Source of the DNA: Schizosaccharomyces osmophilus
Taxonomy: Eukaryota
Direction of reading: 5' to 3'
DNA: 64,000 nucleotides
Assembly: GCF_027921745.1 (NCBI RefSeq)
Contig: NC_079238.1
Span: forward strand, 2,666,001 to 2,730,000
Positions 49,991 to 51,107 of this stretch are shown here, piece by piece. The translations under genes and the position numbers were made by a program. Numbering within the stretch: position 1 is the first letter of the stretch; every line of letters begins with the position of its first letter. A model generated the notes under the pieces. That model did not search any database, was not told where the DNA came from, and saw nothing but the letters and a program-made list of their open reading frames with translations.

Positions 49991-51107
49991 ATGAAAAACA
50001 AATATACTCCTATTTCGGATTCTGATGACTCTTCCAAAACGCTCAATGATGAAAAGGTAGATAGTCAGTCGTCTCCTTCTGATGGTACGCCTCCTCCGTA
50101 TTCAGGTAAGATTAGTTGAAATGGAAAGGAAAGGTTTATTCTTTGTGTTCTTGTTTGAACGGTTCATGATGGAAGAATCATGCTTGTTTATTTATTTGAT
50201 GGGTTTGAAACTAATAACCTTGTCGATAAGTGTCAACAAACAGGGCGAATACCTCTATCCTTTTCACAAACAACGAAAGAACAGTTACTAATACATCCAT
50301 TAGCTTCAACCAAATTTATTGATCTCGAAATGGCTCCTGAAACAGAAGAAAGTTCTAAGAAGAAAAGATATCTGACGCCTCGTGAATTAGCAATTGTTTT
50401 TGCTATTTTTATTGTATATAATGTATGCTTGATTATTGCGAGGGTCATTCTTCTTGTTTATGAAATATGGTTTAATCAGCTTGCCGTTTGGGTACTTTTT
50501 GGCGTTTGGTGCGCTCTATTTCTGTCATTGACAATTGGTAAGAAACTAATTTCAGGATTTTTAATGACTCACTAACTATTAGTAATAACTCAAATGCCTA
50601 AAGAATGGTTCACGCAAGCTGGAAGAGCAACCAAAAACGTATTGTCAGCTATGTGTATCTCAGTATTATGTGTGTGTTTTCTCGATGTCCTCGGTTTCAC
50701 TGCGTATTATGCTGCAAAGAAGTTCACAGGATTTGAAAAGATAAACAACAATTTTTTCTATGCTGTTTGTTTTGTTAACTTTGTCTTGTTTCTTTATTTG
50801 ACGAGTATGTCATACACCCGCGAAATATTCTAACTCTTCTAGTGAATGCAAATGCGCGTGAACGACTTAGATTAGTAGTCGTCGATATGGGAAACGGCAT
50901 AGGAAGCGGCATAAATGGCTTAGGAAACGGAATAGGAAGCGGCATAGGAAATGCTGTGGATCATATGTTCGGTATGTACACTTTGCAAATGCTTCCTTTC
51001 GTAACATCGTACTAACCTATTTAGAAGGGACAAATCGAAGAGATGAAGCACCTCGTAACGAAGAAATTGAACTTCAACCTCTTGCTGAGCAAAGGGCTGA
51101 AGTTTGA
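49991..51107 (+). CDS. wtf: wtf meiotic drive poison/antidote gene, 260 aa (exons 49991-50105, 50304-50537, 50583-50804, 50843-50971, 51025-51107)
   Basis: Exon 1 MKNKYTPIS...GTPPPYS; TM-rich exons 2-3 (WVLFGVWC); exon 4 GNGIGSG repeats; C-terminus ...QRAEV*. Four canonical phase-1 introns give an open 783-nt CDS. Confidence 0.92.
50232..50242 (+). promoter_or_regulatory. FLEX-like (Mei4 forkhead) element in wtf intron 1
   Basis: GTCAACAAACA, one mismatch to GTAAACAAACA, ~90 nt upstream of in-frame ATG 50330. Confidence 0.6.

What the first reader, a model, noticed from the sequence alone, without database searches (positions are those of the whole stretch)
49991..51107. Intact wtf gene with all hallmarks of a two-isoform poison-antidote spore killer
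Seen: five exons splice to an open 260-aa protein. The only PY motif (PPPY, 50090-50101) is in exon 1. Intron 1 is long (198 nt versus 38-53 nt for the others) and holds FLEX-like sites (GTCAACAAACA at 50232; TTGTTTATTTAT near 50184). An in-frame ATG at 50330 (Met48) would give a 213-aa isoform without the PY motif. Known: wtf drivers make a long antidote, sorted to the vacuole via PY-motif/Rsp5-family ubiquitination, and a short Mei4-driven poison from an intron-1 promoter. Inference: this copy is probably an active driver rather than antidote-only or a pseudogene.
Basis: partly seen in the sequence, partly recalled or inferred. Interest (0 to 1): 0.85.

Follow-up and report, generated by a model that had tools for sequence, protein, structure and literature searches.

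The report
Known fission yeast wtf12 spore-killer gene
This is an already catalogued, intact member (wtf12) of the wtf spore-killer gene family of the fission yeast Schizosaccharomyces osmophilus; it can encode both a predicted antidote and a predicted poison, but so can nearly all of its roughly 30 intact siblings, so it is ordinary and more likely a weak or dormant driver than an active one.

Summary
In detail: five GT-AG exons give 260 aa, one PPPY in exon 1, a 198-nt intron 1, and Met48 at 50330. The protein is identical to WBW72911.1. The gene is the published S. osmophilus wtf12, SOMG_01243, syntenic with wtf23 of the second sequenced strain and already listed as a predicted driver. It lies in a 4,061-bp 5S-wag-wtf-5S unit. 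'Probably an active driver' is not supported. PY motif plus exon-2 Met occur in 46 of 49 aligned Wtf proteins. GTCAACAAACA scores below the published confident FLEX cut-off and sits in 18 of 31 intact S. osmophilus genes, including the antidote-only one. In S. octosporus only 1 of 28 intact genes without a confident FLEX has 10 or more poison reads. In its favour: the site is unlikely by chance (P about 0.007), yeast Fkh1 binds GTCAACA about half as well as GTAAACA, and no close paralog antidote was found. Odds of active drive are about 25%. Expression and toxicity were not testable here. Known gene, low interest.

The parts
49991..50105 (+). wtf exon 1, antidote-specific N-terminal tail (residues 1-38)
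   Evidence: protein identical to P0028
50090..50101 (+). PY motif PPPY (residues 34-37), the only one in the protein
   Evidence: every one of 49 aligned rows has one PY motif
50106..50303 (+). intron 1 (198 nt), predicted poison promoter
   Evidence: GT..AG with branch site; promoter role inferred from family
50180..50182 (+). in-frame ATG inside intron 1; would add 50 residues before Met48, no PY motif
   Evidence: use untested
50181..50195 (-). two overlapping forkhead-like sites, ATAAACAAGCA and ATAAATAAACA, each 2 mismatches from FLEX
   Evidence: near chance on their own (11% of shuffles)
50232..50242 (+). FLEX-like site GTCAACAAACA, 1 mismatch, 98 nt before Met48
   Evidence: published FIMO p = 2.48e-5, below the confident cut-off
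50304..50537 (+). exon 2: Met48 and two hydrophobic helices; exon type shared with S. cryophilus wtf1 (96%)
50330..50332 (+). predicted poison start codon Met48 (213-aa isoform)
   Evidence: same 27th-base position as S. octosporus wtf25
50468..50470 (+). Trp94 codon; Pro in 11 and His in 1 of 12 other proteins with this exon-2 type
   Evidence: also Trp in wtf23 of the second strain
50538..50582 (+). intron 2 (45 nt)
50583..50804 (+). exon 3: two more hydrophobic helices
50805..50842 (+). intron 3 (38 nt)
   Evidence: skipped exactly in one contig of run X1, probably a paralog
50843..50971 (+). exon 4, with the Gly/Asn coding repeat at about 50890-50958
   Evidence: 66 bp of repeat listed for the syntenic gene
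50972..51024 (+). intron 4 (53 nt)
51025..51107 (+). exon 5 to the TGA stop
47755..47873 (+). upstream 5S rRNA gene
   Evidence: Rfam RF00001, 103.8 bits; identical to the downstream copy
51816..51934 (+). downstream 5S rRNA gene, direct repeat, 4,061 bp from the first
48215..49054 (-). divergent wag gene (SOMG_01242; wag13 beside the syntenic gene); canonical splicing stops early at 48397 (200 aa)

Best explanation
This is the intact S. osmophilus gene wtf12, whose long isoform is predicted to be a working antidote and whose short Met48 poison isoform is likely made too weakly, or is too mild, to cause measurable drive, so it would be a weak or dormant poison-antidote driver. Shown: exon structure, 260-aa frame, single exon-1 PY motif, Met48, four hydrophobic helices, identity to the annotated protein, and the 5S-wag-wtf-5S unit. 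Inferred from the family: the long transcript starts before exon 1; PPPY recruits Rsp5/NEDD4-type ligases (Pub1, Pub3); ubiquitination sorts the protein from the Golgi to endosome and vacuole together with any matching poison; a short transcript from intron 1, driven by Mei4, would start translation at Met48. Inferred for this copy: its sub-consensus forkhead sites give little short transcript. The gene persists through 5S-mediated duplication and gene conversion among paralogs, as raw material for new drivers.
For: Identity and annotation. Hallmarks are family-wide: 46 of 49 rows, 30 of 31 intact genes labelled driver. FLEX hit below the confident cut-off; 0 of 31 intact S. osmophilus genes have a confident one. 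From the published S. octosporus table (tallied): 10 or more short reads in 7 of 20 genes with a confident FLEX versus 1 of 28 without (Fisher p = 0.006; the 10-read cut was my choice). The 14 wag-associated intact genes have 0.64% short reads (maximum 6) versus 2.65% in the other 34. Drive strength follows poison expression. S. osmophilus uses the canonical site elsewhere: a perfect GTAAACAAACA lies 68 nt upstream of mde3 in this window. [quoted passage not shown] Exon mosaicism: P0018 is 99% identical in exon 2 but 45% in exon 3; P0032 is 36% and 97%.
Against: The base rates come from S. octosporus, not this species. GTCAACAAACA is unlikely by chance (0.7%). The same A-to-C change costs budding-yeast Fkh1 only 0.67 in ddG/RT, about twofold (PMC10287902). 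14 S. octosporus genes without a confident FLEX still have some short transcript. Four of five non-pombe poisons tested were toxic, including S. cryophilus Wtf1, which shares this exon 2 at 96%. No near-identical paralog antidote was found among 24 other S. osmophilus Wtf proteins.
Confidence: 0.55

Rival explanations
1. Active, unsuppressed driver: Mei4 binds the variant site GTCAACAAACA, helped by the two reverse-strand cores, the Met48 poison enters all spores, and only spores that inherit the gene make enough antidote.
For: All coding requirements are met. Variant site beyond chance and plausible for forkhead binding. Toxic S. osmophilus Wtf41 has the same 11-mer. The closest paralog P0026 differs by 10 substitutions and 22 gap columns in the poison region, and repeat-number mismatches break rescue. 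Any start site between 50200 and 50329 has Met48 as its first AUG.
Against: Sub-threshold FLEX, and 1 of 28 such genes is well expressed in S. octosporus. The same 11-mer is in antidote-only wtf16, so its spread may reflect gene conversion, not selection. No S. osmophilus driver was found demonstrated in the papers searched. The second strain carries what looks like the same allele, so a cross of those two would show no drive.
Confidence: 0.25
2. Functionally antidote-only or inert at the protein level: the short isoform is transcribed but non-toxic, for example retained in the ER like Wtf19 poison, perhaps through the private Trp94 in the loop between helices 1 and 2.
For: 1 of 2 tested S. 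osmophilus poisons is non-toxic despite all hallmarks. Single substitutions decide toxicity in S. pombe Wtf5 versus Wtf10. Trp94 replaces a Pro kept in 11 of 12 relatives.
Against: Four of five tested non-pombe poisons are toxic. Other exon-2 types tolerate varied residues at this position. No target poison is close enough for it to act as a suppressor.
Confidence: 0.13
3. Partly self-killing allele: a recombinant whose poison is toxic but poorly rescued by its own antidote, kept harmless only by low expression.
For: S. osmophilus Wtf41 behaves this way. 2 of 4 artificial S. pombe chimeras were reported not self-rescued. This gene is an exon mosaic.
Against: The gene is intact in both sequenced strains and keeps its exon-4 repeats.
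Confidence: 0.07

Closest known systems
S. osmophilus wtf12 (SOMG_01243, WBW72911.1); syntenic wtf23 of strain CBS 15792
   Same: It is this gene: identical protein, 1,117-bp span, and all 7 neighbouring annotated genes checked fit one offset. wtf23 has the same length, FIMO hit position, wag and two 5S genes and the same residues 1-178 by eye.
   Different: Nothing found. Neither allele is among the genes tested functionally in the passages read. The published between-strain identity table was not visible.
S. octosporus wtf25 (SOCG_04480), proven poison-antidote driver
   Same: Five exons, one PY motif in exon 1, poison ATG at base 27 of exon 2, exon-4 repeat.
   Different: 45% identical in the poison region. 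wtf25 has a perfect FLEX and 33 short versus 624 long reads; this gene has a variant site and no expression data.
S. cryophilus wtf1 (SPOG_03611), toxic poison and antidote in S. cerevisiae
   Same: Exon 1 89% and exon 2 96% identical; wag-associated with 5S on both sides.
   Different: Exon 3 45% and exon 4 9% identical; Pro, not Trp, at position 94.
S. osmophilus wtf41 (toxic, poorly rescued) and wtf19 (non-toxic) of CBS 15792
   Same: Same species and architecture; wtf41 has the same GTCAACAAACA; both have a similar exon 3.
   Different: Different exon-2 types; about 60-61% overall identity in the published table.
S. pombe wtf4, cw9 and related drivers
   Same: Two isoforms from alternative start sites, PY-dependent antidote sorting, Mei4 site in intron 1.
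   Different: At most 16% identity; LTR-linked rather than 5S-linked; two or three PY motifs; perfect FLEX. A profile of 49 non-pombe proteins did not reach them at E 0.001.

Membership tests
wtf gene family (octosporus-osmophilus-cryophilus clade) | Sequence homology to annotated Wtf proteins | tested here: met
   56 hits, all Schizosaccharomyces, best E 2.5e-141; identical to P0028
wtf gene family | Five exons with a long intron 1 and short later introns | tested here: met
wtf gene family | Multi-pass membrane protein | tested here: met
   Four hydrophobic stretches at about 64-90, 97-122, 132-161, 173-193; helical in both low-confidence models
wtf gene family | Single PY motif in the antidote-specific tail | tested here: met
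   PPPY 34-37; matches the description in PMC10721834
wtf gene family | Gly/Asn coding repeat in exon 4 | tested here: met
wtf gene family | 5S rDNA and wag context outside S. pombe | tested here: met
wtf gene family | Match to the Pfam WTF model (family name recalled) or direct reach to S. pombe Wtf | tested here: inconclusive
   No such Pfam match at E up to 10, but proven driver S. octosporus Wtf25 has none either. The profile search found 16 proteins; the 7 new ones are S. octosporus or S. osmophilus. The link to S. pombe rests on the published PSI-BLAST.
active wtf driver | In-frame ATG near the start of exon 2 | tested here: met
   Met48; not discriminating, 46 of 49 rows
active wtf driver | Confident FLEX (Mei4) site in intron 1 | tested here: not met
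   Best site has 1 mismatch, published p = 2.48e-5 versus cut-off 3e-6. The paper notes that this does not exclude a short transcript.
active wtf driver | Meiotic short transcript starting in intron 1 | not testable with these tools
   No RNA holder listed; only contigs were available. The species' published RNA data are vegetative.
active wtf driver | Toxic short isoform rescued by its own long isoform | not testable with these tools
   needs an expression assay
active wtf driver | No suppressing paralog antidote in the genome | tested here: inconclusive
   Closest of 24 paralogs: 10 substitutions and 22 gap columns in the poison region; compatibility can only be measured
active wtf driver | Over-transmission from heterozygotes | not testable with these tools
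   needs crosses

The most novel reading that the evidence does not exclude
S. osmophilus has rewired its wtf poison promoter: Mei4 reads a variant forkhead site, GTCAACAAACA on the sense strand 98 nt before the poison ATG and shared by 18 of 31 intact genes, which the published motif cut-off discarded. wtf12, with its private Trp94 and unique exon mosaic, would then be an unsuppressed active driver, the first shown in this species.
Probability: 0.2. Interest if true: 0.4.

Novelty: already known. Interest (0 to 1): 0.14.

Why it matters
As found, little: the gene, its predicted function, its FLEX-like site, wag neighbour and 5S flanks are all in published tables. It matters only as one test case for an open point. 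S. osmophilus keeps 30 apparently complete drivers although none has a confident Mei4 site, and no drive in this species turned up in the papers searched. Showing whether GTCAACAAACA supports poison transcription would decide between a species full of dormant drivers and a species with a changed promoter code, which bears on how wtf drivers have lasted over 100 million years.

Tried and rejected
Sequencing runs: no RNA holder listed; two contig sets laid cannot show a start site or level. Structure: two AlphaFold2 models were low confidence (mean pLDDT 49.1 and 53.6, pTM 0.22 and 0.26), so no fold search and no complex job was run. Solved structures: no match better than E 0.052. Remote homologs: profile search gave 16 proteins, none identified outside the octosporus-osmophilus group. 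Idea that wag is a diverged wtf: pairwise hhalign gave probability 25%, E 7.6e-4 over the N-terminal tail, but 67 of 500 local shuffles scored as high; rejected as unsupported. Idea that the DUF999-like neighbour is a wtf relative: similarity limited to a 10-column C-terminal motif, and 301-497 of 500 shuffles scored as high for four proteins; rejected. Protein atlas: no usable hit for either neighbour. C-terminal comparison with the second strain: the search found nothing because rows are cut in the stored file. Supplementary Table 20 of PMC10085805 was not seen (file cut when stored). Earlier scan findings: none. Pseudogene reading rejected: open frame and canonical splice sites.

Full report
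Observation. Every coordinate claim checks out. The five exons splice to 260 codons and a stop; the introns are GT..AG with branch sites and measure 198, 45, 38 and 53 nt; PPPY (residues 34-37, 50090-50101) is the only PY motif; Met48 lies at 50330 and would give 213 aa. Hydropathy shows four membrane-like stretches. The two FLEX-like strings are present. GTCAACAAACA is one mismatch from the FLEX consensus, which 0.7% of 5,000 intron shuffles reach; two mismatches, as at 50181-50195, are reached by 11%. Met48 is the first AUG only for transcripts starting after about 50200.

Identity. Of 10 neighbouring proteins looked up, 8 are in the collection; their named cluster mates are S. octosporus and S. 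cryophilus proteins. Exon 2 retrieves proteins named 'wtf meiotic driver [Schizosaccharomyces osmophilus]', and P0028 (WBW72911.1) equals my spliced model letter for letter. The annotation table of PMC10085805 lists wtf12, SOMG_01243, at chr1:2715991-2717107, syntenic with wtf23 in CBS 15792. It and the 7 neighbours checked fit the window with one offset of 2,666,000. PMC9562144 Supplementary file 1c lists wtf23 as 1,117 bp, predicted DRIVER, with wag13, 5S genes on both sides and the FIMO hit GTCAACAAACA 241 nt into the gene, exactly as here. The finding is therefore in print.

Surroundings. Two identical 5S rRNA genes in direct orientation (47755-47873, 51816-51934) enclose a 4,061-bp unit with a divergent wag gene and the wtf gene. 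This is a described context, and such repeats explain the loss of wtf31 between the two strains. The protein is a mosaic: exon 2 groups with 12 proteins including S. cryophilus Wtf1 (support 100/99), while exon 3 residues 132-190 are identical to P0032, which has another exon-2 type (few columns, many forks unresolved). That fits the gene conversion reported for the family. Trp94 is private: 11 of the 12 other proteins with this exon 2 have Pro and one has His. The word EIWF occurs once in the paper's alignment file, in wtf23 of the second strain, whose residues 1-178 match by eye.

Do the hallmarks show activity? No. Alignment A2 holds this protein and 48 of 60 relatives retrieved; I left out 12 that looked truncated, mis-spliced or duplicated. 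All 49 have one PY motif and 46 also have the Met. The paper labels 30 of 31 intact S. osmophilus genes as drivers on the ATG alone. The FLEX-like 11-mer has p = 2.48e-5 against a confident cut-off of 3e-6, no intact gene of this species has a confident hit, and the same 11-mer stands in 18 of the 31, including antidote-only wtf16. I tallied all 48 intact S. octosporus genes from the published table. Short reads make up 3.55% with a confident FLEX (20 genes), 1.12% with a sub-threshold hit (10) and 0.35% with none (18). Ten or more short reads occur in 7 of 20 versus 1 of 28 (p = 0.006; my cut-off). The 14 wag-associated genes reach at most 6. Of seven genes deleted, three drove clearly, two weakly and two not at all, in step with poison expression. 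The syntenic S. octosporus gene, wtf14, has 1 short and 199 long reads but only about 38% identity. In this window the gene annotated mde3 (its being a Mei4 target is recalled) has a perfect FLEX 68 nt upstream, so the species still uses the canonical site.

Evidence the other way. The base rates are from a sister species. Budding-yeast Fkh1 loses only 0.67 ddG/RT for the A-to-C change at position 3 of the core, so GTCAACA is a plausible forkhead site; Mei4 itself was not measured there. Fourteen S. octosporus genes without a confident FLEX still make some short transcript. Four of five non-pombe poisons tested were toxic, among them S. cryophilus Wtf1 and S. osmophilus Wtf41; Wtf19 was not. 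Among 24 other S. osmophilus Wtf proteins, of about 29 intact, the closest (P0026) differs by 10 substitutions and two 11-residue insertions in the poison region. Repeat mismatches break rescue, so a suppressor is not evident. I put active drive at about 25%, from rough odds of enough poison transcript (one in three to four in ten), toxicity (two in three) and no suppression (five in six); these are judgements, not measurements.

Mechanism. Shown here: anatomy and context. From the family, by passages read: the antidote's PY motif binds Rsp5/NEDD4 ligases, ubiquitination routes it from the trans-Golgi to endosome and vacuole and carries the poison along, and non-pombe antidotes have a single conserved PY motif; Mei4 drives the poison from intron 1 in S. 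pombe; S. octosporus wtf25 needs both start codons. Inferred for this copy: a working antidote and a weakly expressed poison, hence a weak or dormant driver.

What could not be seen. No RNA run holding the gene was listed. One contig of run X1 skips intron 3 exactly but looks like a paralog. The published RNA data for this species are vegetative. Structure models were too poor for a fold search. No S. osmophilus drive test or meiotic poison data turned up in searches; the library lacks most subscription papers.

Papers seen. PMC9562144: outline; sections 5, 7, 9, 11, 12, 13, 32 whole; first parts of 6, 14, 58; passages; supplement 42 parts 1-2 and searches; supplement 11 searches. PMC10085805: outline; sections 8, 18, 23, 29; searches of its supplement, which was cut when stored, so Table S20 (between-strain identity) was not seen. 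PMC10721834, PMC11892871, PMC9762604, PMC10287902, PMC13160552 and 10.64898/2025.12.28.696746: passages only.

Verdict. Real, correctly described, already known. Interest 0.14. The unannotated DUF999-like neighbour described under Noticed in passing may deserve more attention than the finding itself.

Noticed in passing
window 52307-53116 (-), upstream sites 53397-53428: SOMG_01244, annotated hypothetical: a multi-pass membrane protein with two PY motifs and a weak DUF999 match (E 0.03; relatives P0079 and P0081 carry PF06198). A perfect inverted pair of GTAAACAAACC sites lies about 280-310 nt upstream, a sequence the wtf paper scores as a confident FLEX. 3 of 4 S. osmophilus paralogs found sit tail to tail 1.2-1.3 kb from a wtf gene (wtf12, wtf11, wtf19); SOMG_03856 has no annotated wtf beside it. 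Possibly a second wtf-accompanying meiotic family; one search listed 2 papers, not read, neither about this by title. Homology to Wtf is not supported.
   Followed up: partly
window 48215-49054 (-): The wag gene looks frameshifted: the canonical 55-nt GT-AG intron (48558-48504) gives 200 aa with a stop at 48397, while the annotation runs to 48215. One contig of run X2 has an extra base at 48403. Its N-terminal tail has a PY motif (LPRY) and looks like Wtf exon 1, but 67 of 500 shuffles score as well.
   Followed up: partly
window 50304-50537 versus P0029 and P0027: Exon 2 is 96-97% identical to S. cryophilus Wtf proteins, against 85% for average orthologs of the two species; S. cryophilus Wtf1 clusters at 90% with an S. 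osmophilus Wtf. Introgression or unusual constraint; not tested.
   Followed up: no
window 62997-63007 (-): Perfect FLEX GTAAACAAACA 68 nt upstream of mde3, the only exact match in the window. FLEX-like sites overall are enriched: 14 versus 2.3 expected.
   Followed up: partly
window about 54392-54490 (+): A tRNA-like sequence with an apparent intron, seen by eye, not reported by ARAGORN or Rfam.
   Followed up: no
window 47519-47600 (-): tRNA-Ser(AGA) 155 nt before the upstream 5S gene.
   Followed up: no
window 50261: Contigs of run X2 that cover intron 1 lack one base here, which would put the 50180 ATG out of frame in those copies; the in-frame extension may be particular to this gene.
   Followed up: no
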